Below the pieces are notes generated by a model. It saw only the letters and a program-made list of their open reading frames with translations, did no database searches and was not told the DNA's origin. A stretch of DNA of 39,167 nt from positions 1 to 39,167 of the forward strand of contig DQCG01000609.1 in assembly GCA_003533825.1 (NCBI GenBank), written 5' to 3'. This stretch comes from Phycisphaerales bacterium. Lineage in GTDB: Bacteria; Planctomycetota; Phycisphaerae; Sedimentisphaerales; Anaerobacaceae. Position numbers and translations under genes: made by a program. Of this stretch, positions 15,109 through 37,638 are shown piece after piece (positions within the stretch are counted from its first letter, which is position 1; every line of letters begins with the position of its first letter).

Positions 15109-15372
15109 ATGGATAATTCTTCTAAAGTCAGGGAGTTCGTAGTAGAAAATTTTCTTTTCGGAGACGGCGAAAAACTCAGGGATGATACTTCCTTCATGGA
15201 GGAGGGCATCATCGACTCCACCGGGATTCTGGAGCTGGTATTTTTCCTCGAAGAGACTTTCGGTTTTAGTGTCGAGGATGATGAGCTTGTCCCGGAAAAC
15301 ATGGATAGCTTACAGAATATCGCCCGGTTCGTCGGCCGGAAAATGAATGCAGGTTCTACAGCGGAGGCGTAG
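15109..15372 (+). CDS. acyl/peptidyl carrier protein
   Basis: 87 aa and acidic. The phosphopantetheine-attachment context is GIIDSTGILELVFFLEETF, with Ser37 at nt 15217-15219. RBS GAGGG lies upstream. Confidence 0.8.
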   Translation: MDNSSKVREFVVENFLFGDGEKLRDDTSFMEEGIIDSTGILELVFFLEETFGFSVEDDELVPENMDSLQNIARFVGRKMNAGSTAEA

Positions 15373-15424
15373 ATTTCGGACAGAGTTCGAGGATGCTGCT
15401 TTTTTAAAGCATCTGATTTTTATT

Positions 15425-17419: not shown

Positions 17420-17482
17420 AGATATACATCCGCGGCTGGTTACCTGAGACTTGCGGCGGCATTCTGTGTTTTGGAGATTTTT

Positions 17483-18445: not shown

Positions 18446-18506
18446 GATGGTCGGATGAGTCGCAGTTAAAACGAAGGAACTTTTGAATTGGTAAGGATAT
18501 GAATGT

Positions 18507-20111: not shown

Positions 20112-20134
20112 AGAGAGACACTTTCAAAAGTCAC

Positions 20135-21385: not shown

Positions 21386-21406
21386 AAAAGAGTAGGTGGT
21401 AATTAT

Positions 21407-24367: not shown

Positions 24368-26335
24368 ATGCAGAATATCAAAGCTGTTATACTTGTAGGC
24401 AATAGCGACTTCGGACGGTGTCCGCTGGCGTCACGCTTGCCGCCGGCTTTGTGGCCGGTGGCGGGAAAACCTGCGCTGGAACGCCTGCTGAACCATTTGG
24501 CCGATCAGGGTATAAAGCAGGCGGTTGTTTGTGGCGGAGGTGCCGCTTTTTTACTGGCTAAAACGATTCTCACCGATGATCGTTTGGATATGGATTTTTT
24601 CGATGAATCGTTGCCGGTGGGTACCGCAGGTTGTATTCGCGGAGGTGTGAGCGAGCAAACCGATGAATTACTCCTGGTATTTCCCGCCGGTATATTATGT
24701 CCGCCGGAAGTAGATGTGCTGATGAAGGTGCACCGTGATGGCCGATCTGATGTAACTGTGATGTTGAATCCCACTTACGGAGACGATATATATTCGGAGC
24801 AGGCGTCCGGAATATATGTCTGCAATCCGTGCATCCTGGAACATATACCAAAGGCCGGTTATTTTGATATTAAGGAAGGCTTAATTCCTGAAATGCTCCG
24901 GGTCGGAAGGACAGTTCATGCAGCAAGGTTACCGAATCACGCCGGGAATTTTCGGAATCGGCAAGAATACTTATTTGCAATTTCCGATTACCTTGAAAAT
25001 GTCCCAAAACTGAATGCGGATTTGAAGCTCCTGAAAAGTTCCGATTCCGAAAATGTGTGGTTGGCGGCGAATGCCAGGGTGGACCTTCAGGCAAGAGTTG
25101 ATGGACCGGCTATTATTATGGACGGCGCAACAGTATCAAGCGGAGCAGTTGTTCTCGGGCCGGCTATCCTTGGAAAAAACGCTGCTATCGGCAAAGACAG
25201 CGTTGTAACGAATGGTGTGCTGTGGGACGGCGTACAAGTGGGCTCAAATTGCCTGATCAGGAAATGCGTTATCGACTTTCATGCATCTGTTCAAGATAAT
25301 ACTGTTGTGGAGGAGAAGTCCATACCATTTAAACCGGAGGGGATGTTGAGGCGTGCGGTCAGTCTTGCCTCTGAGGTTGCAAAAAATAACGCGGACAAAT
25401 TGCAGAGGGTATTACAACCACTTGACAAAATTTACGAAATATTGCCGGATTGGACCTGGTTGAGCAGAAAGAGTATTATTGCACTCCTCGGATCCGGCCT
25501 TGTTTTAATAGTTTTTCTCTGGTCTTACTGGTCCGGCCTTGGGGAGCTTTGGAGTTTGTTGCTGAGAAGTGATGAATATTCAGCCGGCCTGTTTGTTCCT
25601 TTTCTAAGTGTTTATATCTTGTGGTCAAGGCGACATGATATTGCTCAGTGCCCCGTTAAGCCTTCTATCTGGGGGCTGTTTGCCTTCATGGCGGCCCAGG
25701 CGATAAGACTTTTAGGGTTGTTCCTTATGTACAGTTCAGCGGAAAGATTATCTATCATCCTGAGCATTGCCGCATTGGTATTGCTGTTGTTTGGCTGGCA
25801 GCTTTTCCGGAAGGTATCTACGATATTATTGTTCCTGTGTTTAATGCTGCCTTTGCCTAACATGTTGCAGTACTTCATCGGGTTGCGCCTGCAAAACTGG
25901 GCCACTTCATCGGCGGTGTTCTGCCTTGAAATAATCGGATACGAGGTTATCCAGGAAGGCAATATAATTAATATTGGCAATGCGAGCGTTGCTGTAGTTG
26001 AAGCTTGTAACGGCTTAAGGATGATTACAGCTTTTTTTGTGATTACCGGGCTGGTTGTCCTGCTGGTCAAGCGGAAATGGTGGGAAAAGCTTATAATTCT
26101 GGCATCCAGCCTGCCCATCGCCTTACTTTGTAACACCATACGATTGGCAATTACAGCCGTGTTTTTCACAGTTCTTGAGGGTGAGTATTGGGAAAAAATA
26201 TTCCACGACTTTGGCGGGTATGCAATGATGCCATTGGCTCTTGCTGTGGTGGTTGGTGAGCTTTGGCTTTTGGCAAAACTGACTGTGCTTCCGGAAACGG
26301 AAGAAGCAATAATAATTACACGACAGAGGGGATGA
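24368..26335 (+). CDS. fusion protein: N-terminal nucleotidyltransferase-like + LbH module, C-terminal exosortase (EpsH/Xrt family)
   Basis: Exosortase part (about nt 25450-26335): SDEYSAGLFVPFLSVYILWSRR, VEACNGLRM (Cys547, nt 26006-26008), CNTIRLA (Arg592, nt 26141-26143) and FHDFGGY (His613, nt 26204-26206). N-terminal part: KAVILVG...WPVAGKPALERLLNHL and the LbH turns VVLGPAILGKNAAIGKDSVVTNGVLWDGVQVGSNCLIRKCVI. Confidence 0.85.
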   Translation: MQNIKAVILVGNSDFGRCPLASRLPPALWPVAGKPALERLLNHLADQGIKQAVVCGGGAAFLLAKTILTDDRLDMDFFDESLPVGTAGCIRGGVSEQTDELLLVFPAGILCPPEVDVLMKVHRDGRSDVTVMLNPTYGDDIYSEQASGIYVCNPCILEHIPKAGYFDIKEGLIPEMLRVGRTVHAARLPNHAGNFRNRQEYLFAISDYLENVPKLNADLKLLKSSDSENVWLAANARVDLQARVDGPAIIMDGATVSSGAVVLGPAILGKNAAIGKDSVVTNGVLWDGVQVGSNCLIRKCVIDFHASVQDNTVVEEKSIPFKPEGMLRRAVSLASEVAKNNADKLQRVLQPLDKIYEILPDWTWLSRKSIIALLGSGLVLIVFLWSYWSGLGELWSLLLRSDEYSAGLFVPFLSVYILWSRRHDIAQCPVKPSIWGLFAFMAAQAIRLLGLFLMYSSAERLSIILSIAALVLLLFGWQLFRKVSTILLFLCLMLPLPNMLQYFIGLRLQNWATSSAVFCLEIIGYEVIQEGNIINIGNASVAVVEACNGLRMITAFFVITGLVVLLVKRKWWEKLIILASSLPIALLCNTIRLAITAVFFTVLEGEYWEKIFHDFGGYAMMPLALAVVVGELWLLAKLTVLPETEEAIIITRQRG

Positions 26336-26430: not shown

Positions 26431-28908
26431 ATGAACGAATTAGAGAAATATCACAGTCAGGCGACTGGACAAGAAATTGTTAATTTACAAATTCCGCCTG
26501 AACAGGAAAGTGAAGCCACGTCGGATCTGGTAGCCGGCATACTCCGCCGCTGGTACATTGTTTTACTGATATTAATATTAATCTGCGGTAGTGGCCTGCC
26601 TGCCGTATGGTTTATGGTAAAACCTATATACGATGTAACAGGCGCGGTAAGAGTTGCCCCCATATTAGCTGACATCCTGAGCGGCGAACAAGACAGAGGG
26701 GAAATATCCAACTATGAAAGCTTTATGAATACTCAGGCGGAAAAGATCACCAGCAACTCGGTTGTGCAAAGAGTGGCGGACGATTTGGTAGGCAAGAATC
26801 TGTTTTTCTTTGAAGCTGAACCGAACGATCTGGTCTCAAATTGGAAGCGGAAGATTCTCGGTACAAAAAAGATAGATCCGGCAATGAAATTGAAACTGGC
26901 TATAGTTGAAGATGAGACCATTACAGTAGCGGCGGACCGACGGAGTGAACTGATAAACATTACTATGCGAAGTGCAAACGAGGAAGAAGCAAAGCAGATT
27001 GTAGATGCCTTTATTAAGGCATATATGGAGATTGAAGTTGTCAGTGCGGACGAAGATGAGAACCGGCAGCTTGCTATCCTTGAGAACAGGCGTGACTATC
27101 TTTACGAGAAAATTGAAAACGACCGCCAGACCATCTACCAGTTGGGACAGGAATATGGAACTGTAGCTCTGGAAGGGCGGCAGGATATGATGCTGCAGCG
27201 TGTTGCAAGTCTGCTTGATACGCTTACAAGCGTCGAGGCCAAAAGAATAGAGCTCGAAGCGCAGGTCCTGTTGCTTGAGCGCACAAGAGAGCAGCCAATC
27301 TCGCCCGAAGAGCTGCTCAAGATGAGACAGGATTATATCAATCAGGATCCCGCGGTCGTGGCTTTCACGGGAAATATAACACAGTTGGAACAAGATCTCA
27401 TAATTGCCCAGCAGACATTAACCGCTGAAAATCCGGAACTTATCAGGAAAAATGAGCTGTTGAAAACGTTGAAGAAACATTTAGAGGATCGAAAGCAGGA
27501 GGCCAGTAATGCTTTTGATAATTTAGTGGCTAAGGAATCGGCGGTGGCCGGCAACAAGCAGCTTGTGGCTAAACGCAGTGAGCTTGAACAAACTCGAGAG
27601 TATGAAAAACGTCTTCAAGAGACACTATCGCAGCAAGATACTCAAACCATTGGAATTGGTAGAAAACAACTGACGATTCAGGAATTGCAGGAAGGGTTGG
27701 AATCTACAAAAGAAGCTTACCAAATAGTGCTAAAGCGAATACAGGATCTCGAGTTGCAGCGGAAGCGTCCGACAAGGATTTCCGTGCATTATAATGCCGA
27801 TATTGCCTCTATTAACGATAAGCGGGTGAAATATTCAGTAGCCCTGGTCTTTGGTTCGCTTGTTTGCGGTATGGGATTGGCGTATCTTCGGGATAAAGCC
27901 GACCAGAGTCTGAGGACACCCGATGACGTGGCAAAGCGTATAGGTATTCGAATAATCGGCACGACTACAAGTTTGAATACTGTTAAGCCGGCTCTTCTTC
28001 CGGAACAGATAGTCGGAGATTACCAGACTATTCGAGCCAACTTAAAGCTGCTTGGCGGCAGAGGGATACCAAAGAAACTGGTTGTTACCAGTCCGGGCAT
28101 GAAAGAAGGCAAAACCACTTTTTCCGTTAATCTGGCAACAAGCCTGTCCGAGTCGGGGAAAAAGGTTTTACTTATAGACGGCGATTTGAGAAAACCTGAT
28201 GTTGCGCGGTTGTTGAATCTTCCCAAGGGTTCGAGGGGATTGCAAGACGTTCTCTGTGGAGTAAAATTTGAACAGGCAGTCTTTTCTGTAGCTTCAACGG
28301 GCCTGGATGTACTTGCCGCCGATTTCCAGGATTCGGCGGATGCCTACGAGATGTTAGCTTTGCCTTCGACGGCTAAACGGATAAATGCAATCAGCAGAAA
28401 GTACGATCACGTGATCATCGACACTCCTCCCGCGCTGGTTTTTCCCGATGCTCTTATGTGGGCTAAGATTGGAAATGCGGTCATTTTGGTCAGCTATGCC
28501 GGCCATACTACCATGCCAGACCTCAAAGAAGCGAAAGAACGACTTTTACAAATAAATGTTAAGGTGCTGGGCACCGTGCTGAGTAGTGTTCAGGCAGAGC
28601 ATAGTTATTACCGCCACGGCCATAGTTATTATGCACAAAGCGCTCAAACAAGAGAAAGTGCCAGGGTATCCAGGAGAAAACTGATGTTCTCCATGGAAGA
28701 GGGCGCAGATAATACCTACGATTCGAAAATCCCGGAGTCTGATAAGCCGGGTGAAGGTTTTTCGTATTCACAAAGTGTCGAATCAAGAAAAAGCGTTATG
28801 CGAAAACGAACCAGGAAAAAGCCGCCGGTCTCGAATGAGGACATCGCGGATGCAGATAATACCGATACATCCGAGACCGACAGCGAAAATCGGCCGACTG
28901 AGGCCTGA
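26431..28908 (+). CDS. polysaccharide co-polymerase (PCP-2a, Wzz/GumC-like) fused to a BY-type tyrosine autokinase
   Basis: Strong RBS AAGGAG. TM1 is WYIVLLILILICGSGLPAVWFMV, followed by a long coiled-coil periplasmic region, then TM2 YSVALVFGSLVCGMGLAYL. Walker A SPGMKEGKTT, Walker A' LLIDGDLRKP, Walker B HVIIDTPP. Tyrosine cluster SYYRHGHSYY (aa 725-734). Confidence 0.9.
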   Translation: MNELEKYHSQATGQEIVNLQIPPEQESEATSDLVAGILRRWYIVLLILILICGSGLPAVWFMVKPIYDVTGAVRVAPILADILSGEQDRGEISNYESFMNTQAEKITSNSVVQRVADDLVGKNLFFFEAEPNDLVSNWKRKILGTKKIDPAMKLKLAIVEDETITVAADRRSELINITMRSANEEEAKQIVDAFIKAYMEIEVVSADEDENRQLAILENRRDYLYEKIENDRQTIYQLGQEYGTVALEGRQDMMLQRVASLLDTLTSVEAKRIELEAQVLLLERTREQPISPEELLKMRQDYINQDPAVVAFTGNITQLEQDLIIAQQTLTAENPELIRKNELLKTLKKHLEDRKQEASNAFDNLVAKESAVAGNKQLVAKRSELEQTREYEKRLQETLSQQDTQTIGIGRKQLTIQELQEGLESTKEAYQIVLKRIQDLELQRKRPTRISVHYNADIASINDKRVKYSVALVFGSLVCGMGLAYLRDKADQSLRTPDDVAKRIGIRIIGTTTSLNTVKPALLPEQIVGDYQTIRANLKLLGGRGIPKKLVVTSPGMKEGKTTFSVNLATSLSESGKKVLLIDGDLRKPDVARLLNLPKGSRGLQDVLCGVKFEQAVFSVASTGLDVLAADFQDSADAYEMLALPSTAKRINAISRKYDHVIIDTPPALVFPDALMWAKIGNAVILVSYAGHTTMPDLKEAKERLLQINVKVLGTVLSSVQAEHSYYRHGHSYYAQSAQTRESARVSRRKLMFSMEEGADNTYDSKIPESDKPGEGFSYSQSVESRKSVMRKRTRKKPPVSNEDIADADNTDTSETDSENRPTEA

Positions 28909-29013: not shown

Positions 29014-30732
29014 ATGAATATGATTGTTATACACAGGAACTCTGCAGATAAAAGCGGAGAGAGTTTGCTTCGGTTTGCTCTGGCCGACGAGCCTGTCGCC
29101 GGAGTTATTCTCGATGGATTGTGCAGGTGCTCAGATAAGGACATTAGGGGGGATTCCATTTTGCGATTCCCTGCGAAATTGAATCTCGGCAAGGCTGTTT
29201 GTGCTATCCCGAAGGAATGGGCGGTTGAATCTTGCGAATTGAGCCATGAAAATGAATCGGTGCGACAGACTTCATTTGATGACGGGCCAAATGTAATCCG
29301 CTACAGGGGAAAAGTGCATGTCCCAGTTGAGTTTCTTCGCAGGGCCGGACTGAATGTCGGCTCGGACTCATGGTTCGTTGTGTCCAATGGACGATTTGCT
29401 GCACAAATCAACGTCGAGCTGCTCTATAAGGTACTGGCCGGCGTCCGGGCGGACGTGGTGGCGGTTAATGCGGAACCCGGGTTGCTGGGAGAACGCGAAA
29501 AAGTGCGATTGACAACCCAGAGCAAGGTAGCGGGTTTCCGCCGGGCTTACTCGGATTCAGCCGAGTTCACATTTGTTTCTACTCAATGGCCTCATCATCT
29601 TTTTATTAAAACAAACGTACTCGATCGGATTTTGGTCGATGATGCTTTGCCTCAATCTTTTTCCGCTCTTATAGAAAAGTGCCGGTCAAAAGCATTAACG
29701 CTGCGGGCAGTTAATGTAGGCGGGACTGTGCTGGATTTAGAAACGGAAAATGGTTTACTGTACTTTTGCGAATCGAGGCTTTCGGAAATCCGGAACTCCA
29801 AATACGAACTTCGAGAATCAAGTACAATATCCGAAAATTCGAGATTTATCGGGAAGGTGCTTTTAGGAAAGAATATTCACATCGATCCTAAAGTCATTGT
29901 TGTTGGCCCGACTATTATTGCTGACAATGCCAGGATTGAGCGTGGTGCCGTTATAAATTCATCAATCATCGGGCCGGAAGTTTGTGTGCCGAAGAATCAA
30001 ATTGTCCAAAGCCGGATTATCAAGGGGCCGCAATACGACTGGAAGCGCCTGGTTCGACCCAAAAGCAGTAGAAGTATGTCACTGCGTTCCGATGGGCCGT
30101 TTCGCCTTTGGTCGAAATTTTCTTATGCGAGATTCTTAAAGCGAATTACCGATTGTATTGCCGCGGTAATGGTATTAATTCTGTTTGCCCCCGTGATGCT
30201 GTTCGTTGCCCTGGTAATCAAATTAACTTCGCCGGGTCCTGTATTTTATAAGGATAGACGTCAGGGACTGCACGGAAAGATGTTCAATTGTTTGAAATTC
30301 AGAACGATGGTTACCGGTGCTGATAAGATACAGGAGAAACTGCGAATCGTCAGCCAGGTGGATGGCCCGCAGTTCAAGATGACCGATGACCCTCGAATCA
30401 ATACTGTAGGCAGGTTTCTTCGAGAAACGTATATCGATGAAATACCTCAGTTCTTTAATGTTCTGCACGGCCAGATGAGTATAGTCGGTCCGAGGCCTTC
30501 ACCGGAATCGGAGAATACGCTGTGTCCGTTCTGGCGTGACGCCCGGCTGTCGGTTCGCCCGGGTATTACGGGGCTCTGGCAGGTTTACAGAACACGCCAG
30601 CCGATGAGAGACTTTCAGGAATGGATACAATACGACATCGAGTATGTCAGGAATCTGTCACTGAAAATGGATTTATTCATATGTTGGAAAACAGCAAAGA
30701 AACTTGTTGGAAATTTCATCAACCAATTCTGA
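29014..30732 (+). CDS. priming polyprenyl-phosphate phosphoglycosyltransferase (Bac_transf/EpsB/WbaP-type) with a ~340-aa N-terminal nucleotidyltransferase-like/LbH module
   Basis: PGT core (about nt 30120-30732): FLKRITDCIAAVMVLILFAPVMLFVALVI, LKFRTM and DEIPQFFNVLHGQMSIVGPRP. N-terminal LbH turns IVVGPTIIADNARIERGAVINSSIIGPEVCVPKNQIVQSRII. Confidence 0.9.
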   Translation: MNMIVIHRNSADKSGESLLRFALADEPVAGVILDGLCRCSDKDIRGDSILRFPAKLNLGKAVCAIPKEWAVESCELSHENESVRQTSFDDGPNVIRYRGKVHVPVEFLRRAGLNVGSDSWFVVSNGRFAAQINVELLYKVLAGVRADVVAVNAEPGLLGEREKVRLTTQSKVAGFRRAYSDSAEFTFVSTQWPHHLFIKTNVLDRILVDDALPQSFSALIEKCRSKALTLRAVNVGGTVLDLETENGLLYFCESRLSEIRNSKYELRESSTISENSRFIGKVLLGKNIHIDPKVIVVGPTIIADNARIERGAVINSSIIGPEVCVPKNQIVQSRIIKGPQYDWKRLVRPKSSRSMSLRSDGPFRLWSKFSYARFLKRITDCIAAVMVLILFAPVMLFVALVIKLTSPGPVFYKDRRQGLHGKMFNCLKFRTMVTGADKIQEKLRIVSQVDGPQFKMTDDPRINTVGRFLRETYIDEIPQFFNVLHGQMSIVGPRPSPESENTLCPFWRDARLSVRPGITGLWQVYRTRQPMRDFQEWIQYDIEYVRNLSLKMDLFICWKTAKKLVGNFINQF

Positions 30733-30752: not shown

Positions 30753-33700
30753 ATGCCGGGTAGATACTTTAACTGGAAACTGGCAATTGTTTTGGTTATC
30801 AGCCTTGTTGTTTTAGGGGTAAGCGCCTTCGGACTGCGAAAGTGGCGCAGAACCAATAGAGTAGAGCAGGATTTTATCCTTGGTAATAAAGCATATAATG
30901 AGCACAGGTGGGAAGAGGCGGCAGAATATCTGGGTAGTTATATTGCCTTGGAACGAGATGATGTGCCCATACTGCTCAAATACGCGGACGCGCAGCTTAA
31001 AATCAGGCCTGCCAAGCGCAACAGAGTTTTACAAGCTATAGGGGCATATCGGAACGTCTTAAGGTTAGAAAAAGATAATTCCGAAGCTGCTATGCAGCTT
31101 ACTGAAATCTACCTGGGCCTCGGCAGCCCCGGCGAGGCGGAGCTTACTGCCAGAAGACAACTTGAGGCTGTTCGGAATCCCGCGCTTCGGAGGATGTTGG
31201 CTCTTGCGCTGGCCGGACAGCGGAAGTTCAAAGAAGCGGCGGCGGAATTGAAAGCAGTTGTACAGGAAAATCCTGAGCAGATATTAGCTTACGAGACATT
31301 AGGTCAGCTTATAGAGCAGCGTCCGGAAGATTTTCAAGATTTACCGTCCTTTTGGTTCGATCAAGCCGTGGAGAAAAATCCGTCTTCCGCCCTGGCATAT
31401 ATAATCCACGCGGGTTTCTACAGGAGAAGTGAAGATCCATCCAGTGCTTTGGCTGATTTGGAACTGGCCGAAAAGCAGGATTTATCTGATTCGGCCGTCC
31501 GGTTGCGCCTTGCAAAAGAACTGATCAATTTAAATGCTCTTGACAAGGCGGAGGTGCACCTCGCCGCTGTGCAGGAAACCTCGCCGGCGGATCAGGATCT
31601 CTGGACAACGTGGGCTACTCTTGCATTGAAATCACAGTCGCAGGAAAAAATGTTGAAAATAGCCGAGAACGGATTGAAAGAGCTTTCTTCTCAGCCGTGG
31701 GATTTTATGCCCTTAGCCACAGAGCTGTTTATCCGCTGCGGCGAGTTTGAAGACGCTAACGATTGTCTTTCGAAAATGTACGAAAAGGATGTTTCAGCGA
31801 TGTCGGTTACATTTTTGAGAGGCCTTGTAGCCGCCGAGCAGGGGAATCTGTTTGATGCCGTAAAATATTGGCAGCAGTCTATGGAATCAGGCAACAAATC
31901 CATACATGTGCGTTTGGCGCTGGCTTCGGCTCTGTCTCGCCTGGGTAACACGCAATCGGCCGTGCAGCAACTGCGTACACTCATTTCTGAAAGCCCCGCC
32001 TCCTTCGAGGGTTATCTGGCCCTGGCTAAACTCCTGTCTCAGACTGGAAACTGGGTCGAGGTCGCCGAGCTTGCTGCAAGAGCTATGGAACTATCGCCGG
32101 AAAACCAGGAATCCGTTTTACTGCATGTACAAGCTCAGATGCAACTGTTATCGGCAAGCTCAGGTAAACAAGGGACGGTAAATGCACAGACGTTGAGTGA
32201 CGTGCAGCGGCAATTGTCTGTTTTGGAGAAAACTCACGAGTCCGTCGGTGAAGTTAAATCGTTGCAGTTACATCTCGCATTACGACAGGGAAAATATGCC
32301 GAGGCTGAGTCTCTTCTGGCTCAACTTAAGGATTCCGGCCTGCCACAAGCAAGGATTGCCATAACCGAAGCTGAGCTGCTTGTCGCTCAGGACAAGATTG
32401 ATGAAGCAATACTGATATTAAATGAAGCCGGGGAAAAGTTTCCCGATGACGCTGATGTGGTAAGATACCTTGCGCTTTCGTTGGACCGGAAAGGAAATCA
32501 AAAAGAATGCGAAGCGCTCATTATAGATTCATTGGATCGTATTGATGCACCTATTGCCAGGCGTGAATTAGGTTTGCTGCTTGCCCAATTCTATGTTCGA
32601 TGGAGACAAAATGACAGTGTATATCCGATGCTTAAAACACTTTCAGGGAAGTTGCCCAACGATATTCCTATAAAGCGTCGGCTTTTATTGTGTGAGCAGG
32701 TTATCGAAGATCCCGAACAAGCACAGCAACTTGTCAATGACATAAAATCCATCGAAGGCGACAACGGCTGGCAATGGCGATATGAACAGGCGACAGTCTG
32801 GTTCGCCATGGATGATTTCAAAAATCGTTATCCCCAGATAGTGTCACTTCTGCAGGAAAATGCGCAGATTAATCCCAATGACCAGTTAAGCCGCGTGCTT
32901 CTGGCGAGAACCTATGAGCGAGCCGGTGAGATGCGATTGGCGCTTTCGATATACCGTGAGACCTTAAGGCGGTCACCTGATGATCTTCGTGTAATCATTC
33001 CCGCTGTTGCCGCACTCTACAATGCGAGGCAATATGATGAAGCCGAGCAGGTTTTGAACCGTGCATCGATACAAAGACTGTTCCATCCGGAACTTAAGAG
33101 ATTGCAATTTCAGAGCTATCTAAGACGTGGCCAGTTGGATTCGGCCTCGGATATTCTCCATAGCCTTCTCAATAACGATCCTGATAATCAGGCTGCCTGC
33201 CTGTCTCTTGCACTGCTCAAGATACAGCAGGGCGAGTTTGATGAGGCCTCTGAGTTGCTGACCGGTCTAAAAGCACAGAATCCTGAATCGCTGCCGGTGA
33301 CCGCCGCACAAATCCAGATCAATATTCGTCAAAACAAAAACGAAGAGGCGATGCGTATTTCTAATGAAATAGTGAAAAAACTGAACAATGCATCCGCCTA
33401 TATCCTCCGTGCTCGAACATATGCTACGCTGGGGCGGATGGAAGATGCCGTCAAAGACCTCGATCATGCTGTTTCCACCGAACCTGAGAACGCTGAGGTG
33501 TGGATTGCCAGAAGCGACTTCTATCGTTCTATAAACCAGGGCGAAAAAGCAACGGCTGATATTCAGAAAGCGTTAGATCTGGCCCCTGATAACATTCAAT
33601 TACAAAAACGTGCCATTCCGCTGTTTTTAGTGTCCGGAGAACCTAATATAGTTCATGCGGGAAAGGTGCTCCTTGAACAAGCTCTGGAATCAAATGCAGA

Positions 33701-34931
33701 AGATATTGAATTACGGCTGCTCAGTGCGCGATCGGCACTTATCGAAGGGACGGCTCCGGCAATCGAAAAAGCCAAGCAGATTCTTCAAAGGGTAACTAAA
33801 GACCGGCCTGAAATGAGTGGGGCATGGGTGCTGTTGGGTCAGATTGCCATAAAGGAGGGTCAGCTTGGGAAGGCCATGGATGCTGCTTTGGGAGGTCTCG
33901 CCTATGAACCCAGCGATAAAAATTTGTTACTGTTGAAAGCTCGCGTGGAGGCGGTGCGGTCACCGGTCCTGGCTATTCCAACTCTGAAATTATTACATGA
34001 GATGGATCCGAACGATCTTAGTATCGCGATATTAATGGCCGAGACGTATATTAAAGCGGGCGATCCGGAAAGAGCTGTAAATCTGTTGAGAGAGCAATTG
34101 ACTGCTTGTGATGCCTCGACGCGTAGAAAATGCGTAGTCGCTCTGGCTGTTGCCTTATACAAAAGCGGCGACAAAGAACAGGCACAAAAAGAATTTGATT
34201 CTCTGCTTGAGTCTGAGCCGGACGATCCGGGTCCATTATTAGCGCATGTGCAATTACTCAAAGACGATGAAGCATGGAGCGTGCTGAGCCGGATGGTCAT
34301 TGACTGGTATGGTAAGCACCCCCAGGACAGTCATACGCCTGTAAACATTGCCAAGGGTTTGATGGTGATTGAGGACAATAAGGCCAGGGTAACAGCCGAG
34401 GAAATACTACGGTTGATACTGAAAGGTGACCCTGATTGTAGTGAAGCTATGGGCATTCTTGCTATCCTGCTGCAAATTAAGGGCCGTCCTGAAGAATCAG
34501 CACCGCTCTACCGCCGACTTCTTGAGCTTGAGTCTGACAATGTAATCGCCATCAATAATCTTGCCTGGATAATGTCCGAAGTGCAAGGTGAACATCAGCA
34601 AGCTCTTGAGCTTGCCCAGAAAGGGATGGAAATGGCGCCAAATTATTATGATCTCATCGATACTCGTGGTGTTATATATTACCGGCTGGGTCAGTACGAT
34701 AAAGCTGTCGCTGATTTCATGGAATGTATTAAGCTTTACCCCGGTATTACGCCGGCAAGCATTGGCACACGTTTTTATTTAGCAAGAGTATTTGCCGATC
34801 TGGGAGAAAAGGACAAAGCAATTAAATATTTGAATGAGGCTTTGGAATTGGAGGGCCAAATCGGCGGTTTATCAACGGCAGACTTGGCCGAAGCAAAGAG
34901 TCTGCTAAAACAGTTACAGGAGGGTAGTTAG
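30753..34931 (+). CDS. very large membrane-anchored TPR-repeat protein (PEP-CTERM-system TPR protein PrsT-like)
   Basis: N-terminal anchor WKLAIVLVISLVVLGVSAFGL. TPR-like helical hairpins run throughout, e.g. GNKAYNEHRWEEAAEYLGSYIALERDD, AYILRARTYATLGRMEDAVKDLDHAVSTEPEN and GVIYYRLGQYDKAVADFMECIKLYP. 1392 aa. Confidence 0.85.
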   Translation: MPGRYFNWKLAIVLVISLVVLGVSAFGLRKWRRTNRVEQDFILGNKAYNEHRWEEAAEYLGSYIALERDDVPILLKYADAQLKIRPAKRNRVLQAIGAYRNVLRLEKDNSEAAMQLTEIYLGLGSPGEAELTARRQLEAVRNPALRRMLALALAGQRKFKEAAAELKAVVQENPEQILAYETLGQLIEQRPEDFQDLPSFWFDQAVEKNPSSALAYIIHAGFYRRSEDPSSALADLELAEKQDLSDSAVRLRLAKELINLNALDKAEVHLAAVQETSPADQDLWTTWATLALKSQSQEKMLKIAENGLKELSSQPWDFMPLATELFIRCGEFEDANDCLSKMYEKDVSAMSVTFLRGLVAAEQGNLFDAVKYWQQSMESGNKSIHVRLALASALSRLGNTQSAVQQLRTLISESPASFEGYLALAKLLSQTGNWVEVAELAARAMELSPENQESVLLHVQAQMQLLSASSGKQGTVNAQTLSDVQRQLSVLEKTHESVGEVKSLQLHLALRQGKYAEAESLLAQLKDSGLPQARIAITEAELLVAQDKIDEAILILNEAGEKFPDDADVVRYLALSLDRKGNQKECEALIIDSLDRIDAPIARRELGLLLAQFYVRWRQNDSVYPMLKTLSGKLPNDIPIKRRLLLCEQVIEDPEQAQQLVNDIKSIEGDNGWQWRYEQATVWFAMDDFKNRYPQIVSLLQENAQINPNDQLSRVLLARTYERAGEMRLALSIYRETLRRSPDDLRVIIPAVAALYNARQYDEAEQVLNRASIQRLFHPELKRLQFQSYLRRGQLDSASDILHSLLNNDPDNQAACLSLALLKIQQGEFDEASELLTGLKAQNPESLPVTAAQIQINIRQNKNEEAMRISNEIVKKLNNASAYILRARTYATLGRMEDAVKDLDHAVSTEPENAEVWIARSDFYRSINQGEKATADIQKALDLAPDNIQLQKRAIPLFLVSGEPNIVHAGKVLLEQALESNAEDIELRLLSARSALIEGTAPAIEKAKQILQRVTKDRPEMSGAWVLLGQIAIKEGQLGKAMDAALGGLAYEPSDKNLLLLKARVEAVRSPVLAIPTLKLLHEMDPNDLSIAILMAETYIKAGDPERAVNLLREQLTACDASTRRKCVVALAVALYKSGDKEQAQKEFDSLLESEPDDPGPLLAHVQLLKDDEAWSVLSRMVIDWYGKHPQDSHTPVNIAKGLMVIEDNKARVTAEEILRLILKGDPDCSEAMGILAILLQIKGRPEESAPLYRRLLELESDNVIAINNLAWIMSEVQGEHQQALELAQKGMEMAPNYYDLIDTRGVIYYRLGQYDKAVADFMECIKLYPGITPASIGTRFYLARVFADLGEKDKAIKYLNEALELEGQIGGLSTADLAEAKSLLKQLQEGS

Positions 34932-34933
34932 CT

Positions 34934-35257
34934 ATGCTTCAATTGCAAAATTCACAATCTGAGAACATAGTAAGTGGTGATTACGGGTGCAAACAGCCCG
35001 ATGTCATTCTGCTTAACCAAAAACAGTGGTCGTATGTGCAAAACATTTATAATTTAACGCCTCGAGAACGTCAAATAGCGGAATTAGTTTGTAAGGGTTT
35101 CAGAAATGGTAATATAGCTAAATTCCTGCACATAAAACCCGGTACAGTAAAGACTCACACAAGGAATATTTATCGAAAAGTCCACGTTAAAAGCAAAATT
35201 GCGATGCTCCTGAGATTTGTGAATGATTCGAGGGATCTTACAACTCCCTATGTATGA
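34934..35257 (+). CDS. small LuxR/GerE-type HTH transcriptional regulator with no receiver or ligand domain (EpsA-like role)
   Basis: LTPRERQIAELVCKGFRNGNIAKFLHIKPGTVKTHTRNIYRKVHVKSKIAML is a complete GerE HTH. The ATG lies 2 nt after the TPR gene's TAG stop (34929-34931). Confidence 0.85.
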   Translation: MLQLQNSQSENIVSGDYGCKQPDVILLNQKQWSYVQNIYNLTPRERQIAELVCKGFRNGNIAKFLHIKPGTVKTHTRNIYRKVHVKSKIAMLLRFVNDSRDLTTPYV

Positions 35258-35865
35258 GAGTATATATTGCTCTTTTTACTTACAACTGAACTTTTGCAAA
35301 ACTCTTGTTACAAGGCAAAGATCGCTGAGATAATTCCTACCTATAACACCCATATATACATCCCACCATATTAGTATTAATACAAATCATAACTGACTCA
35401 TACGAAAAAACAGCTTTATTAAAGCTGACAATCCCCTTTTCAATACTAAGAAAGCACAAAATGCAGATCTAAAACATAATATAAGGATTCTGTGTCTGCA
35501 TCATTTCAAAAAACTGCAAGTACTACAAATCTTCGTTAAATCAATTAATAATCATTTCCTGAACAAATATTTACTTATCTTAAAATAGTTTTCTATTTTT
35601 CCTATATTATAGAAGTTAAACTAAAGTTATTGCGCTTATTTGTCCGATAAGTACAACGAAAATATAATACGTCCGAGAATATATCCATAAAATGCAATAT
35701 TTTCATTTATTTCTTTTCATTTTTGTTCTATAATGAAGATATTGAACTTAGAGAATATACACATAGCAGATAAGGAGGGTAAGACCATCTCGAATATATT
35801 CTGAGAGGGTCCTCGGTAGGTTATGTGGTAAGATTAAAAGCGCCCTGTAAGGAGACAGAGGAGAA
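35258..35865. promoter_or_regulatory. ~600 bp AT-rich non-coding region; presumed promoter, operator and 5'UTR for the downstream secreted-protein genes
   Basis: No plus-strand ORF of 60 aa or more. G+C is about 22-30% in the 60-nt lines I counted, against roughly 45-50% in flanking genes. TATAAT at 35729-35734. Imperfect hairpin/palindrome at 35783-35811 (GACCATCTC-GAATATATTC-T-GAGAGGGTC). Strong RBS GAGGAG before ATG 35866. Confidence 0.5.
35411..35427. repeat. perfect 17-bp palindrome CAGCTTTATTAAAGCTG (candidate operator or weak terminator hairpin)
   Basis: CAGCTTTA-T-TAAAGCTG reads identically on both strands. It lies 154 nt after the LuxR stop and is followed by ACAATCCCCTTTT. Confidence 0.6.
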
Positions 35866-36768
35866 ATGGTTCGTGGCGAAAAAACCAAGGGAATGGTAGT
35901 TATGCTGTTGTTTTTTGGTACGGCGATCGTAAATGCTGCACCAACGATTAACGATAGCGATGGCGATATCTTCCTCTGCGCCAGGCCTTCAGGTTTATAC
36001 ATATATCCTCACTGCAGGCAAGATATAGACCACGTTACCGGACTATTCAATTCACACTTAGATTCCATCTCTAAGGAATTTCACAGGCCACCTGTTAAAA
36101 ATGGCAAGTTGCAGAATACGTATATGGGCGTAAAATCATTGCCCCCAGCGCCAAAAACACTGCTGATGGTCCTGGTTGGATTCCTGTGTGTATCACTGGT
36201 AAAGGATCGCAGAGTTTGGCTTGCGGCATTGGCAGGCCTGCTATGGGCCGGCCAGGCCGGAGTCTCTATTTTGCCGCAGTTGGCTGCAAATATAGCCGGC
36301 AGAGGAAGAAGTGAAAAACAATCATCTGATCATCAGGTTGCTCACCTAACCGGGCAAAAACATCCATATCGTCTGCGAAGTGATATTGAAGGTACATGCT
36401 ATATCGGCCTGCTGCGTCATTTAGAAGGAATTCCTAAATCCGGGAAATCATTTATACCGAACACAATAGTAAGGCATAAATTTCAACAGGGAACTGAGAG
36501 AATTTCAATATGGTCTTCCTTTCGAACATGTTCCATATCTAAGTCTTTGCAAAGACTTGCTAATCATAAGTTTTTTTCTTTACCTAAGAACAACCTTCAA
36601 AAAGAGAATCGTTATTGTGGAGAAGAATCCCATTCCGCAATAGCGGCACTTTCTTCCTGCCTATTCCAGGTAACAGAGTGCCTGGCTCCAGGTGCCAGGC
36701 AACATGTCCTTTATTCATCATCATTTAATATTGCCAGCCTGGCCCGAGGTCCGCCGAATTTAAAATAA
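35866..36768 (+). CDS. hypothetical secreted/membrane protein with an internal PEP-CTERM-like segment
   Basis: RBS GAGGAG. Signal-peptide-like MVVMLLFFGTAIVNA-AP. Internal SLPPAPKTLLMVLVGFLCVSLVKDRR at aa 91-116, then a second hydrophobic segment and a ~170-aa basic, Ser/Cys/His-rich tail. No family recognised. Confidence 0.5.
   Translation: MVRGEKTKGMVVMLLFFGTAIVNAAPTINDSDGDIFLCARPSGLYIYPHCRQDIDHVTGLFNSHLDSISKEFHRPPVKNGKLQNTYMGVKSLPPAPKTLLMVLVGFLCVSLVKDRRVWLAALAGLLWAGQAGVSILPQLAANIAGRGRSEKQSSDHQVAHLTGQKHPYRLRSDIEGTCYIGLLRHLEGIPKSGKSFIPNTIVRHKFQQGTERISIWSSFRTCSISKSLQRLANHKFFSLPKNNLQKENRYCGEESHSAIAALSSCLFQVTECLAPGARQHVLYSSSFNIASLARGPPNLK
36136..36213 (+). other. internal PEP-CTERM-like tripartite motif (P-A-P, hydrophobic helix, basic cluster)
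   Basis: SLPPAPKTLLMVLVGFLCVSLVKDRR. Compare the genuine C-terminal signal of the next gene, VIPAPGAILLSSIGVCLVGWLRRRKTL. Confidence 0.45.
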
Positions 36769-36827
36769 ATCGTCAGACTCTTTTCGAACAGGATATATGC
36801 ATTAATCCCTTTATTATGAATGAAGGT

Positions 36828-36842
36828 TGGTGTGGGCCTTGC
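36828..36842 (+). promoter_or_regulatory. candidate sigma-54 (-24/-12) promoter TGG-N8-TTGC
   Basis: TGGTGTGGGCCTTGC has the GG/GC elements at the canonical spacing (consensus TGGCACG-N4-TTGC). It lies 137 nt upstream of ATG 36979 in an intergenic gap. Several chance matches are expected in 39 kb. Confidence 0.2.
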
Positions 36843-36978
36843 CGGATGGATAAGACGAAGAACCCTATGGGGTTAAATGATTTAGATTGTGCCTTAATGG
36901 ATGAGTAGGCATATAAAGCGATTACACACATGCGGATTTCCTGCTCTCCGAGAGGTTTTGTAATAAGGAAGGATATAT

Positions 36979-37638
36979 ATGAAAGCTAAGGATGGTATGA
37001 GAATCTTGTCTAAGGTTAAGTATTTAAAGAAATATTGTGCGTCACGAATAAGCTTGTTTAGGCCTGTTGGGAGCAACCCATTTGTGCTGCCTGTTTTCAC
37101 AGTGCTTACAGCGGTTTTGCAAAAATCGGCGAAAACAGCAGTTTGTCTATCCGTGGTTATGTTGCTTTTCGGAGGATTAAGCACACCGGCAAATGCCATG
37201 CCGACTTTAGATCTGACAAACGCAGGCAATTCCGGATACACTGATCTTGCCTTTACCGGTAAACTTATGTTCCGAGTAACGATTGAAATCTATTTGGCAG
37301 ATGTGGGAAGTTTTACGAAAAATCCTCAGAAATACGGCTACATGATTTACGACTTCGATGCCGGCAATCTGGTCAAATTCAAATGGGGCAAGATGAATTG
37401 GCAGCACAATAAACCAAACGGCCCCGGAGAGTATATACCAAACGGTATATTTAACGATGGGGCACTTGCCTTTTTGTTTCCGAAGTTCGATCAATTTTAT
37501 CCAAATAAGCCCGGGATAAAGGATTTGGATGTCACAGCGGCCACGCCGCCGCCGGTAATTCCTGCTCCAGGTGCTATTCTTTTAAGCAGCATTGGCGTGT
37601 GTCTTGTAGGCTGGCTGCGCAGACGTAAAACACTATAG
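36979..37638 (+). CDS. PEP-CTERM sorting-domain protein (exosortase substrate)
   Basis: Strong RBS AAGGAAGGA. Signal peptide ...KTAVCLSVVMLLFGGLSTPANA-M (TTG 37117 is an alternative shorter start). The C-terminus TPPPVIPAPGAILLSSIGVCLVGWLRRRKTL* has the motif, TM helix and Arg-rich cluster of a PEP-CTERM signal. Confidence 0.8.
   Translation: MKAKDGMRILSKVKYLKKYCASRISLFRPVGSNPFVLPVFTVLTAVLQKSAKTAVCLSVVMLLFGGLSTPANAMPTLDLTNAGNSGYTDLAFTGKLMFRVTIEIYLADVGSFTKNPQKYGYMIYDFDAGNLVKFKWGKMNWQHNKPNGPGEYIPNGIFNDGALAFLFPKFDQFYPNKPGIKDLDVTAATPPPVIPAPGAILLSSIGVCLVGWLRRRKTL
37555..37635 (+). other. C-terminal PEP-CTERM sorting signal (PAPGA variant)
   Basis: VIPAPGAILLSSIGVCLVGWLRRRKTL are the last 27 codons before the stop. 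Confidence 0.8.

What the first reader, a model, noticed from the sequence alone, without database searches (positions are those of the whole stretch)
29014..30732. The priming phosphoglycosyltransferase carries a paralogous copy of the same N-terminal module
The C-terminal ~200 aa are a monotopic PGT (re-entrant helix ITDCIAAVMVLILFAPVMLFVALVI, KFRTM, DEIPQFFNVLHGQMSIVGPRP). The preceding ~340 soluble residues align by eye, in the same order, with the exosortase N-terminus. The LbH turns match: IVVGPTIIADNARIERGAVINSSIIGPEVCVPKNQIVQSRII versus VVLGPAILGKNAAIGKDSVVTNGVLWDGVQVGSNCLIRKCVI. Further upstream, HLFIKTNVLDRIL...LIEKCRSKALTLRAVNVGGTVLDLETENGLL matches GIYVCNPCILEHIP...LIPEMLRVGRTVHAARLPNHAGNFRNRQEYL. 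In the PGT copy the Gly-rich NTase motif is essentially gone (MIVIHRNSADKSGES). So the enzyme that starts glycan assembly and the enzyme that processes PEP-CTERM proteins share a pseudo-NTase module, and their genes flank the PCP/BY-kinase gene. My hypothesis is a shared ligand-sensing or dimerisation module that couples EPS initiation to protein sorting. Such coupling is widely assumed for PEP-CTERM systems, but I know of no physical basis for it. This is my best candidate for an undescribed system in the window.
Basis: partly seen in the sequence, partly recalled or inferred. Interest (0 to 1): 0.85.

Follow-up and report, generated by a model that had tools for sequence, protein, structure and literature searches.

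The report
Dead nucleotidyltransferase modules on PGT and exosortase
The enzyme that starts exopolysaccharide assembly and the exosortase each carry an inactive-looking sugar-nucleotidyltransferase-like module, and the two modules co-occur across more than 70 related genome loci, which suggests a testable physical link between glycan initiation and protein sorting.

Summary
ORF 29014-30732 is a monotopic phosphoglycosyl transferase (PGT). Its first ~340 residues form a soluble two-domain module: a nucleotidyltransferase (NTase)-like domain followed by a left-handed beta-helix (LbH). This is the same domain order as the N-terminus of the exosortase at 24368-26335.

- **Homology.** Profile-profile alignment of the two modules gives E 4e-23 over 226 columns. 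The NTase parts alone give E 2.6e-4, and 0 of 300 shuffles reach the real score. A confident AlphaFold2 model (pLDDT 86) matches GMPP, AGPase and GlmU-type enzymes.
- **Catalysis.** Both modules lack the catalytic motifs.
- **Not a recent duplicate.** The PGT module is no closer to the exosortase module than to real enzymes. It also keeps a hairpin that the exosortase module has lost.
- **Co-occurrence.** In 65 of 66 testable species loci the order is exosortase fusion, BY-kinase, PGT fusion. In other lineages the exosortase-type module is a free-standing ~360-aa protein in the same slot, or directly abutting the PGT fusion.

The conserved unit is therefore the module pair, and the exosortase is an add-on. 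I infer a GMPPA/GMPPB-like regulatory or assembly pair. No contact between the modules, and no ligand, has been shown. I found no description of this in the literature I searched. I class it as a new variant of a known kind.

The parts
29014..29799 (+). PGT fusion, aa 1-262: divergent NTase-like domain (module B, N1) with no Pfam match
   Evidence: In the AlphaFold2 model most of this region has pLDDT 83-97, apart from loops 42-57 and 77-89. Foldseek aligns 360-430 columns to two-domain NTase+LbH enzymes. hhalign against the exosortase NTase domain gives E 2.6e-4 and beats 300 shuffles. Conserved residues: W120, N125-G126-R127, D147, E162, G174, R177, W192-P193-H194-H195, G237, D241.
29800..30033 (+). 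PGT fusion, aa 263-340: left-handed beta-helix (LbH)
   Evidence: Pfam LbH_EIF2B at E 1.7e-6, plus Hexapep. LbH profile against the exosortase LbH profile gives E 4e-20. The exosortase LbH HMM hits PGT LbH regions at mostly 1e-11 to 1e-18 (weakest 7e-8) in the related loci.
30034..30123 (+). Basic linker, aa 341-370
   Evidence: pLDDT is low around aa 350-360, and length varies across the family.
30124..30732 (+). PGT fusion, aa 371-572: monotopic phosphoglycosyl transferase catalytic domain with re-entrant helix
   Evidence: Pfam PF02397 at 208.9 bits. Foldseek matches PglC 8e37/8g1n with TM 0.77-0.81 and WbaP 8t53. K428-F429-R430-T431-M432, D475-E476 and P493-R494-P495 are invariant.
24368..25033 (+). 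Exosortase fusion, aa 1-222: degenerate NTase domain (module A)
   Evidence: Pfam NTP_transferase at 25.9 bits (cut-off 21.2), and NCBIfam man1P_GTase_Rv at E 5e-26. The family signature ILxGxRDFGRCPLAS..LWP replaces GGxGTRLxPLT..PKP. It lacks the Asp of the LNGD motif and a 25-residue EKP hairpin.
25034..25360 (+). Exosortase fusion, aa 223-331: LbH
   Evidence: Pfam LbH_EIF2B at E 6e-13 and Hexapep_GlmU at E 3e-8.
25496..26335 (+). Exosortase fusion, aa 377-655: 8-TM exosortase domain
   Evidence: Pfam PF09721 at 181 bits. TIGR02602 scores 136 bits against a cut-off of 105.6. No named Xrt subtype reaches its cut-off. C547, R592 and H613 are at least 90% conserved.
26431..28908 (+). Polysaccharide co-polymerase / BY-kinase gene, located between the two fusion genes
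   Evidence: Pfam Wzz plus AAA_31, and TIGR01007 at 119 bits against a cut-off of 108. A homologue is present in 76 of 80 related loci.
30753..34931 (+). PrsT-like giant TPR protein, part of the conserved cassette
   Evidence: TIGR02917 at E 1e-81, below its cut-off. Present in 76 of 80 loci.
34934..35257 (+). LuxR/GerE-type regulator, part of the conserved cassette
   Evidence: NCBIfam LuxR-family hits including EpsA TIGR03020, below cut-off. Present in 61 of 80 loci.
36979..37638 (+). Putative exosortase substrate with a PAP-type PEP-CTERM-like C-terminus
   Evidence: The C-terminus reads PAPGAILLSSIGVCLVGWLRRRKTL. NF038129 hits below its cut-off. Homologues lie downstream in 29 of 80 loci.

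Best explanation
The window encodes two ancient, catalytically inactive relatives of GDP-mannose-pyrophosphorylase-type sugar-1-phosphate nucleotidyltransferases. Each consists of an NTase fold followed by an LbH.

- **Module B** is always fused to the N-terminus of a monotopic PGT. It takes the place of the transmembrane bundle and nucleotide-sensing domain found in large PGTs.
- **Module A** is fused here to the N-terminus of an exosortase. In other lineages it is a free ~360-aa cytoplasmic protein in the same gene slot.

**Shown:** the fold, the loss of catalytic motifs, and the near-obligate co-occurrence of A with B-PGT.

**Follows from established topology:** both modules lie on the cytoplasmic face of the inner membrane. 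The reasons are the PGT re-entrant helix topology, and the absence of a signal peptide or transmembrane segment ahead of either module.

**Inferred mechanism:**
- A and B act together as a regulatory or assembly pair. Precedents are GMPPA/GMPPB, KONJAC/VTC1 and eIF2B gamma/epsilon, where a dead NTase-LbH paralogue binds a nucleotide-sugar and/or oligomerises through the LbH.
- The pair would gate or organise the first, Und-P-consuming step of EPS synthesis, next to the BY-kinase.
- Where A is fused to the exosortase, as in this window, the same contact would hold the sorting enzyme at the site of glycan initiation.
For: **Fold and homology**
- Profile-profile alignment of the modules gives E 4e-23 and probability 99.5%. 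The NTase parts alone give E 2.6e-4, with 0 of 300 shuffles reaching the real score.
- The PGT module against genuine NTase-LbH enzymes gives E 2e-18 over 218 columns.
- The AlphaFold2 model has pLDDT 86.4 and pTM 0.78.
- After PglC and WbaP, the top Foldseek hits are all two-domain NTase+LbH proteins, including GMPPA/B (7d72), VTC1-KJC2 (8yre) and AGPase. They have E 2e-10 to 1e-7 and 360-430 aligned columns.

**Loss of catalysis**
- Module A has GxRDFGRCPLAS where canonical enzymes have GGxGTRL. It also lacks the LNGD Asp and the EKP hairpin.
- Module B has SNGR in place of LNGD and GFRR in place of F-EKP, and it has no Gly-rich loop.
- Both modules still carry strongly conserved polar residues, so they are under selection.

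**Partnership**
- The exosortase fusion lies 2.3-2.7 kb upstream of the PGT fusion in 65 of 66 testable GTDB species loci.
- Free-standing module A sits in the same slot next to an intact PGT fusion in L084, L085 and L089. It overlaps the PGT gene in L088. An LbH C-terminus lies directly upstream of the PGT fusion in L090.

**Precedents**
- The accessory domain of WbaP senses nucleotide and mediates dimerisation (PMC10942596).
- EpsW activates the PGT EpsZ by promoting its dimer (PMC12802240).
- GMPPA is a non-catalytic paralogue that binds GDP-mannose and regulates GMPPB (PMC11228364).
Against: - No direct evidence exists for contact between A and B, or for any ligand.
- Conserved operon synteny alone would produce the observed co-occurrence.
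- Module B is no closer to module A than to active enzymes. Depth-matched hhalign scores are 124-158 against module A and 133 against canonical enzymes.
- Sequence support for the NTase part of module B is modest: probability 43%, and no Pfam hit in 74 members.
- Foldseek TM-scores to NTase-LbH structures are low, 0.31-0.42 with rmsd 10-13 A.
- L070 has the PGT fusion with neither module A nor a BY-kinase within 10 kb upstream.
- All the data come from metagenome-assembled genomes.
Confidence: 0.5

Rival explanations
1. Each module works only in cis. Module B is the PGT's own dimerisation and allosteric domain, a functional analogue of the WbaP accessory domain. Module A does an unrelated job for the exosortase or the BY-kinase. 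The two never touch, and they co-occur only because they sit in one conserved operon.
For: - The whole five-gene core (exosortase, BY-kinase, PGT, TPR protein, LuxR regulator) is syntenic, so co-occurrence does not point specifically to the two modules.
- Module B is not specifically related to module A.
- LbH and NTase domains commonly form homo-oligomers. WbaP's accessory domain acts within a homodimer (PMC10942596).
Against: - Module A persists as a free protein when the exosortase domain is absent, so it is not merely an exosortase accessory.
- In L088 and L090 it directly abuts the PGT fusion with no BY-kinase, TPR protein or exosortase nearby.
Confidence: 0.3
2. One or both modules are active enzymes with an unusual active site. 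They would make the NDP-sugar donor and channel it to the PGT.
For: - Module A passes the Pfam NTP_transferase threshold. It keeps the GTAG-like nucleotide motif and the GiY strand.
- Both modules have conserved polar pockets.
- Fusions of PGTs to pathway enzymes are known (the bifunctional PGT class, PMC11626204).
Against: - The Gly-rich GGxGTRL loop with its Arg and the metal-binding Asp of LNGD are replaced in both modules. The Lys of PKP is replaced in module A in this window. The EKP sugar-phosphate motif is replaced in module B and deleted in module A.
- An NDP-sugar synthase fused to an exosortase has no obvious rationale.
Confidence: 0.08
3. The resemblance is only a shared hexapeptide-repeat LbH, which is common in EPS loci. 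The upstream alignment would then be chance.
For: - BLASTP and Pfam see only the LbH.
- LbH repeats are compositionally biased and ambiguous in register: the two BLAST HSPs are offset by one turn.
Against: - The NTase parts alone give a profile alignment at E 2.6e-4 that beats 300 shuffles.
- The alignment to genuine enzymes extends 150 residues upstream of the LbH.
- A confident structure model matches only two-domain NTase+LbH proteins, over 360-430 columns.
- The PGT LbH HMM does not hit the locus's LbH acetyltransferases.
Confidence: 0.03

Closest known systems
GMPPA/GMPPB, KONJAC/VTC1, eIF2B gamma/epsilon and AGPase large/small subunits (paralogous NTase-LbH pairs with a non-catalytic regulatory member)
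   Same: They share the two-domain NTase + LbH fold and are top Foldseek hits (7d72, 8yre, 5b04). One or both paralogues have lost catalytic residues. The paralogues work as pairs. GMPPA binds the product and regulates GMPPB (PMC11228364).
   Different: - Here both members look dead.
- Each is tethered to a different membrane enzyme (PGT, exosortase), or one of them is free.
- No catalytic partner of the same fold is encoded in the locus.
- Hetero-oligomerisation is only inferred.
Large monotopic PGTs (WbaP, CpsE, EpsZ) with an N-terminal transmembrane bundle plus PF13727 nucleotide-sensing/dimerisation domain
   Same: They have the same catalytic domain (Foldseek hit to 8t53). A cytoplasmic non-catalytic accessory domain sits N-terminal to it, and in WbaP that domain senses nucleotide and mediates dimerisation (PMC10942596). 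Regulation of the PGT EpsZ by a partner protein is known (PMC12802240).
   Different: There is no four-helix bundle and no PF13727. The accessory domain has an unrelated fold (NTase-LbH). A paralogous module is encoded separately nearby.
Bifunctional monoPGTs such as Neisseria PglB, an acetyltransferase-PGT fusion
   Same: A soluble domain that includes an LbH is fused to a small monoPGT core (class described in PMC11626204 and PMC10942596).
   Different: In those proteins the fused domain is an active pathway enzyme. Here the LbH is the short GMPP/eIF2B type that follows a dead NTase domain, not an acyltransferase.
PEP-CTERM/exosortase (EpsH/XrtA) EPS-associated sorting systems
   Same: The elements match: exosortase with Cys/Arg/His, a PrsT-like TPR protein, XrtA-system-like amidotransferase and acyl-CoA ligase, a BY-kinase, a PGT, and a PEP-CTERM-like substrate. 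The exosortase gene is embedded among EPS genes, as Haft described in 2006 (PMC1569441).
   Different: - No named Xrt subtype reaches its cut-off.
- The exosortase fusion described by Haft is to a C-terminal EpsI domain (PMC1569441), not an N-terminal NTase-LbH.
- The system's PGT is not the TIGR03013 type (172 bits against a cut-off of 393).

Membership tests
Monotopic phosphoglycosyl transferase (Bac_transf, PF02397) | Pfam domain scores above the gathering threshold | tested here: met
   208.9 bits against a cut-off of 27, covering aa 376-565.
Monotopic phosphoglycosyl transferase (Bac_transf, PF02397) | A single re-entrant membrane helix, the Asp-Glu catalytic dyad, and a PglC-like fold | tested here: met
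   One hydrophobic segment, 374-412. D475-E476 are invariant. TM 0.77-0.81 to PglC 8e37/8g1n.
Large monoPGT (WbaP type) | N-terminal four-helix transmembrane bundle plus the PF13727 domain | tested here: not met
   No hydrophobic segment in aa 1-373, and no PF13727 hit.
Bifunctional monoPGT | A second catalytic domain fused to the PGT core | tested here: inconclusive
   A fused two-domain module is present, but its catalytic motifs are replaced. Activity was not measurable here.
Sugar-1-phosphate nucleotidyltransferase with C-terminal LbH (GMPP/GlmU/AGPase type), applied to the PGT module | NTase (GT-A-like) fold followed by an LbH | tested here: met
   The AlphaFold2 model with pLDDT 86 has Foldseek hits to 5z0a, 8x7s, 8yre, 7x8j, 7d72 and AGPases at E 2e-10 to 1e-7 over 360-430 columns. 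hhalign against canonical enzymes gives E 2e-18.
Sugar-1-phosphate nucleotidyltransferase with C-terminal LbH (GMPP/GlmU/AGPase type), applied to the PGT module | Pfam NTP_transferase (PF00483) match | tested here: not met
   None of 74 diverse family members hits PF00483 at E <= 0.01.
Sugar-1-phosphate nucleotidyltransferase with C-terminal LbH (GMPP/GlmU/AGPase type), applied to the PGT module | Catalytic motifs: GGxGTRL, the LNGD Asp, and EKP | tested here: not met
   The N-terminus is MIVIHRNSADKSGES. SNGR replaces LNGD, and GFRR replaces F-EKP.
Sugar-1-phosphate nucleotidyltransferase, applied to the exosortase module | Pfam match and catalytic motifs | tested here: inconclusive
   PF00483 scores 25.9 bits against a cut-off of 21.2, so the match is met. 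The motifs are not met: GNSDFGRCPLAS replaces GGxGTRLxPLT, PAGI replaces NGDV, and the EKP hairpin is deleted.
Exosortase (EpsH, PF09721 / TIGR02602) | Family model scores above cut-off, with conserved Cys, Arg and His | tested here: met
   PF09721 at 181 bits. TIGR02602 at 136.2 bits against 105.55. C547, R592 and H613 are at least 90% conserved.
Named exosortase subtypes (XrtA, XrtB, XrtD, XrtW and others) | Subtype model scores above its cut-off | tested here: not met
   The best is XrtD at 176.9 bits against 400. XrtA scores 138 against 208.
Non-catalytic NTase-LbH regulatory paralogues (GMPPA / eIF2B-gamma type) | Hetero-oligomerisation with a paralogue, and binding of an allosteric ligand | not testable with these tools
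   The only evidence is genomic pairing of the two modules. No multimer prediction or binding assay was available.

The most novel reading that the evidence does not exclude
The two dead NTase-LbH modules form a heteromer that physically docks the exosortase onto the priming PGT and BY-kinase complex. PEP-CTERM proteins would then be processed at the place where Und-PP-linked glycan is started. The exosortase might even use the lipid-linked glycan or the nascent EPS as the acceptor for its transpeptidation. This would be the first structural basis for the long-assumed coupling of EPS synthesis and PEP-CTERM sorting.
Probability: 0.15. Interest if true: 0.9.

Novelty: new variant of a known kind. 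Interest (0 to 1): 0.62.

Why it matters
Exosortase genes are almost always embedded in EPS loci, but no physical or mechanistic link between sorting and glycan synthesis is known. Control of the committed, Und-P-consuming PGT step is also only beginning to be understood, through the WbaP accessory domain, EpsW-EpsZ and CapM phosphorylation.

This locus offers a concrete, testable candidate: a pair of pseudo-enzyme modules. One is on the PGT. The other is free or on the exosortase.

If the pair interacts or senses a nucleotide-sugar, three things would follow:
- It would define a new accessory-domain class of monotopic PGTs.
- It would define a new exosortase subtype.
- It would be a bacterial counterpart of GMPPA-type pseudo-enzyme regulation.

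The family is large: 162 clusters at 50% identity reach E <= 1e-10. It is unannotated beyond 'sugar transferase'.

Tried and rejected
- **BLASTP.** Plain BLASTP of the two proteins or of their first 340 residues aligns only the LbH.
- **Pfam, NCBIfam and PDB sequence searches.** Pfam and NCBIfam on the PGT, and an HMM search of PDB sequences, see only the LbH.
- **First hhalign run.** With a shallow alignment (51-100% identity), the NTase parts alone were not significant (E 0.087). Significance appeared only after adding 50%-cluster representatives.
- **First AlphaFold2 run.** It used the shallow alignment and gave pLDDT 57 with an unfolded PGT domain. The model built from the diverse alignment replaced it.
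- **hhalign global mode.** It gave a meaningless alignment.
- **Specific-paralogue test.** I tested whether the PGT module is a specific sister of the exosortase module and rejected it. Depth-matched scores are equal to those against canonical enzymes, and the pattern of hairpin presence and absence is discordant.
- **P0346.** This 482-aa protein looked like a BY-kinase fused to the PGT N-domain. It is a frameshift or read-through artefact.
- **Domain tree.** A neighbour-joining tree of module A suggests that fused and free forms are interspersed. Many 'short' entries are contig fragments, so I draw no conclusion on the direction of change.
- **PEP-CTERM regex.** A scan for PEP-CTERM tails in loci with free module A was inconclusive.
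- **Literature.** Searches found no description of either fusion. The 2021 monoPGT network paper (PMC7848588) is not in the held library, so I could not check its fusion catalogue.
Full report
**1. What is in the window.** All genes in the window lie on the + strand, and the region forms one EPS/exosortase locus.
- 24368-26335 encodes a 655-aa protein. It has Pfam NTP_transferase at aa 5-134 (25.9 bits, cut-off 21.2), LbH families at aa 228-319, and Exosortase_EpsH at aa 381-635 (181 bits).
- 26431-28908 is a Wzz plus BY-kinase protein.
- 29014-30732 encodes the 572-aa protein in the finding. Bac_transf covers aa 376-565 (E 6e-62). A sub-threshold LbH covers aa 266-335. Nothing is recognised in aa 1-260.
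- Downstream lie a PrsT-like 1392-aa TPR protein, a LuxR/GerE-type regulator, and a protein with a PAP-type PEP-CTERM-like tail.

**2. The observation checks out.**
- BLASTP between the two proteins aligns only the LbH: PGT 261-348 to exosortase 216-298, 32% identity, E 5e-6.
The profiles used 118 PGT-family and 71 exosortase-module sequences.
- I then added 50%-identity cluster representatives (162 clusters at E <= 1e-10, almost all 500-620 aa). The two whole modules now align at E 4e-23 with probability 99.5%, over 226 columns (PGT 91-345 to exosortase 72-311).
- With the LbH removed, the NTase parts still align co-linearly at E 2.6e-4 over 141 columns.
- In the control runs (match columns only) the real score was 27.1. 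The maxima were 24.9 in 150 column shuffles and 21.6 in 150 block shuffles. The reversed profile scored 13.0.
- Against a small set of genuine NTase-LbH enzymes, the PGT module aligns at E 2e-18 over 218 columns starting at the LNGD strand.

**3. Structure.**
- An AlphaFold2 model built from the diverse alignment is confident (pLDDT 86.4, pTM 0.78). Only loops 42-57 and 77-89 fall below 50.
- The order of secondary-structure elements in aa 1-258 matches the NTase fold. That order is: beta1, helix, beta2, beta3, helix, the beta4 strand 'WFVVSN', hairpins, the strand 'HLFIK', two helices, a long hairpin with 'LDLET', and a last helix. An LbH of about five turns follows.
- Foldseek against the PDB returns PglC (TM 0.77-0.81) and WbaP for the C-terminal domain.
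- After those, it returns only two-domain NTase+LbH proteins: ST0452, tlr0611, VTC1, the VTC1-KJC2 complex, GMPPA/GMPPB, AGPases and GlmU.
- TM-scores to these are low (0.31-0.42, rmsd 10-13 A). That is expected for a two-domain comparison with a divergent first domain, but it is a caveat.

**4. Both modules look catalytically dead, in different ways.**
- The exosortase-type module (A) has a family-wide signature, ILxGxRDFGRCPLASRLPTALWP, where genuine enzymes have ILVGGxGTRLxPLTxxxPKP.
- Module A also has PAGI in place of NGDV and lacks a 25-residue hairpin carrying the EKP motif. It keeps the GTAG and GiY elements.
- The PGT module (B) has no Gly-rich loop. SNGR replaces LNGD, so Arg127 sits where the metal-binding Asp should be. 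GFRRxY replaces F-EKP. It keeps the hairpin and an LDLET element that resembles W-D-x-G-T.
- Both modules retain strongly conserved polar residues. In B these are R127, D147, E162, R177, H194-H195 and D241. They are therefore under selection, which fits a remodelled binding pocket better than decay.

**5. They are not a recent duplicate.**
- Module A is far closer to genuine enzymes (E 7e-79) than to module B.
- Depth-matched subsamples of module A score 124-158 against module B. The canonical set scores 133.
- Module B keeps a hairpin that module A has lost.
- 'Paralogous copy of the same module' is therefore correct only at the level of superfamily and domain order.

**6. Genomic evidence.**
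- A scan of one genome per GTDB species found 108 relatives of the PGT module. Eighty loci were kept, nearly all from Planctomycetota MAGs labelled Sedimentisphaerales, Phycisphaerae or 'Pirellulales'.
- In 65 of the 66 loci with enough upstream sequence, an exosortase carrying module A lies 2.3-2.7 kb upstream, with the BY-kinase between them. L070 is the single exception.
- The syntenic core is exosortase fusion, BY-kinase, PGT fusion, PrsT-like TPR protein, LuxR regulator. It holds for the three distant exosortase fusions whose loci were examined (35-38% identity).
- Module A also exists as a free ~350-370-aa protein with no exosortase domain, in exactly the same slot between the Alg13/14-like genes and the BY-kinase. 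An intact PGT fusion lies downstream (L084 and L085).
- L089 shows the same arrangement in a different, rfb-type context. I reached it from the PGT side.
- In L088 the free module A gene overlaps the start of the PGT fusion gene, with no BY-kinase, TPR protein or exosortase nearby. In L090 an LbH C-terminus lies directly upstream of the PGT fusion.
- The invariant association is therefore module A plus B-PGT. The fusion of A to the exosortase is an elaboration that dominates in the lineage of this window.

**7. How it most likely works.**
- *Shown:* fold, loss of catalytic motifs, selection, and pairing.
- *From established knowledge:* the re-entrant helix of monotopic PGTs places both termini in the cytoplasm. 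Module A has no signal peptide and precedes the first transmembrane helix. Both modules and the BY-kinase domain therefore face the cytoplasm at the membrane.
- *Inferred:* A and B act as a pseudo-enzyme pair that senses a nucleotide or nucleotide-sugar and/or drives oligomerisation of the PGT.
  - GMPPA does this for GMPPB (PMC11228364).
  - The PF13727 domain does it for WbaP (PMC10942596).
  - EpsW does it for EpsZ (PMC12802240).
- With A fused to the exosortase, the same contact would place the sorting enzyme at the site of EPS initiation.
- My confidence in the pair model is about 0.5. The main rival, that each module acts only in cis, gets about 0.3.

**8. Comparison with what is known.**
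- The PGT is a true monotopic PGT. It is not a large PGT, because it has no transmembrane bundle and no PF13727. It is also not a classical bifunctional PGT, because the fused module is not an active pathway enzyme.
- The exosortase is a true exosortase, with TIGR02602 above its cut-off and conserved Cys/Arg/His. It belongs to no named subtype. The exosortase fusion described by Haft is to a C-terminal EpsI domain (PMC1569441).
- I found no paper describing either N-terminal fusion. The 2021 monoPGT network paper could not be read, so prior mention of this architecture there cannot be excluded.
- Some automated JGI names ('.../NDP-sugar pyrophosphorylase') show that pipelines occasionally glimpse the module.

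**9. Verdict.**
It is sharpened in one respect: the conserved unit is the module pair, and the exosortase is optional.
- It is a new variant of known kinds, and of moderate-to-high interest because it turns an old assumption into a direct interaction test.
- The main limits are three: only metagenome-derived sequences, no multimer modelling, and no ligand evidence.

Noticed in passing
window 36979-37638 (+): A 219-aa protein ends in VIPAPGAILLSSIGVCLVGWLRRRKTL. This is a PEP-CTERM-like sorting signal with PAP in place of PEP, and only a sub-threshold NF038129 hit. One to three paralogues sit downstream of the LuxR gene in related loci such as L057 and L071. It is the likely substrate of this unnamed exosortase subtype.
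   Followed up: partly
window 35866-36768 (+): A 300-aa ORF has a signal-peptide-like N-terminus and an internal PEP-CTERM-like element (LPPAPKTLLMVLVGFLCVSLVKDRR, around aa 92-117), followed by about 180 more residues. It has no family hit but is conserved at 31-37% identity in 25 of 80 related loci. The position of the sorting-signal-like element inside the protein is unexplained.
   Followed up: no
window 24368-24500 and the module A family (P0121-P0210): The exosortase-type module has its own conserved signature, G-x-R-D-F-G-R-C-P-L-A-S...L-W-P, with a near-invariant Cys. It replaces the GGxGTRLxPLT loop in both fused and free-standing members, which suggests a new function for that loop rather than simple decay.
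   Followed up: partly
L083 13388-15159; L053 10001-11712; L076 10001-11725: In a few genomes the PGT fusion is split into two or three ORFs: N-domain, then LbH plus the start of the PGT domain, then the rest. These could be pseudogenes or long-read frameshift errors. L083 also lacks the TPR gene and has a free module A.
   Followed up: no
P0346 (482 aa): This looks like a fusion of the BY-kinase C-terminus to the PGT N-domain. The junction is a Pro/Arg-rich out-of-frame stretch followed by a normal 'MQLIVMHERL' start, so it is most likely a frameshift or read-through artefact rather than a true fusion.
   Followed up: yes
window 15347-22402 (+): This run of genes comprises an XrtA-system-like amidotransferase (AsnB type), an NAD-synthase-like protein, an exosortase-system-like acyl-CoA ligase, a class-III aminotransferase and a PP-loop DUF7411 protein. 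All score below the NCBIfam cut-offs for the XrtA-specific (PEP-CTERM-system) models. Together they suggest amide or amino-acid decoration of the polysaccharide.
   Followed up: no
window 34000-37000: G+C content falls to 0.39-0.40, against 0.45-0.52 elsewhere, across the LuxR gene, a ~600-bp gap, and the two small ORFs that carry PEP-CTERM-like elements.
   Followed up: no
L070 (JBGLNQ010000001.1, 2.9-Mb contig): This is the only testable locus where the PGT fusion, TPR gene and LuxR gene have neither a module A gene nor a BY-kinase within 10 kb upstream. Nothing in that upstream 10 kb resembles any window gene. The missing genes may lie elsewhere in the genome.
   Followed up: partly
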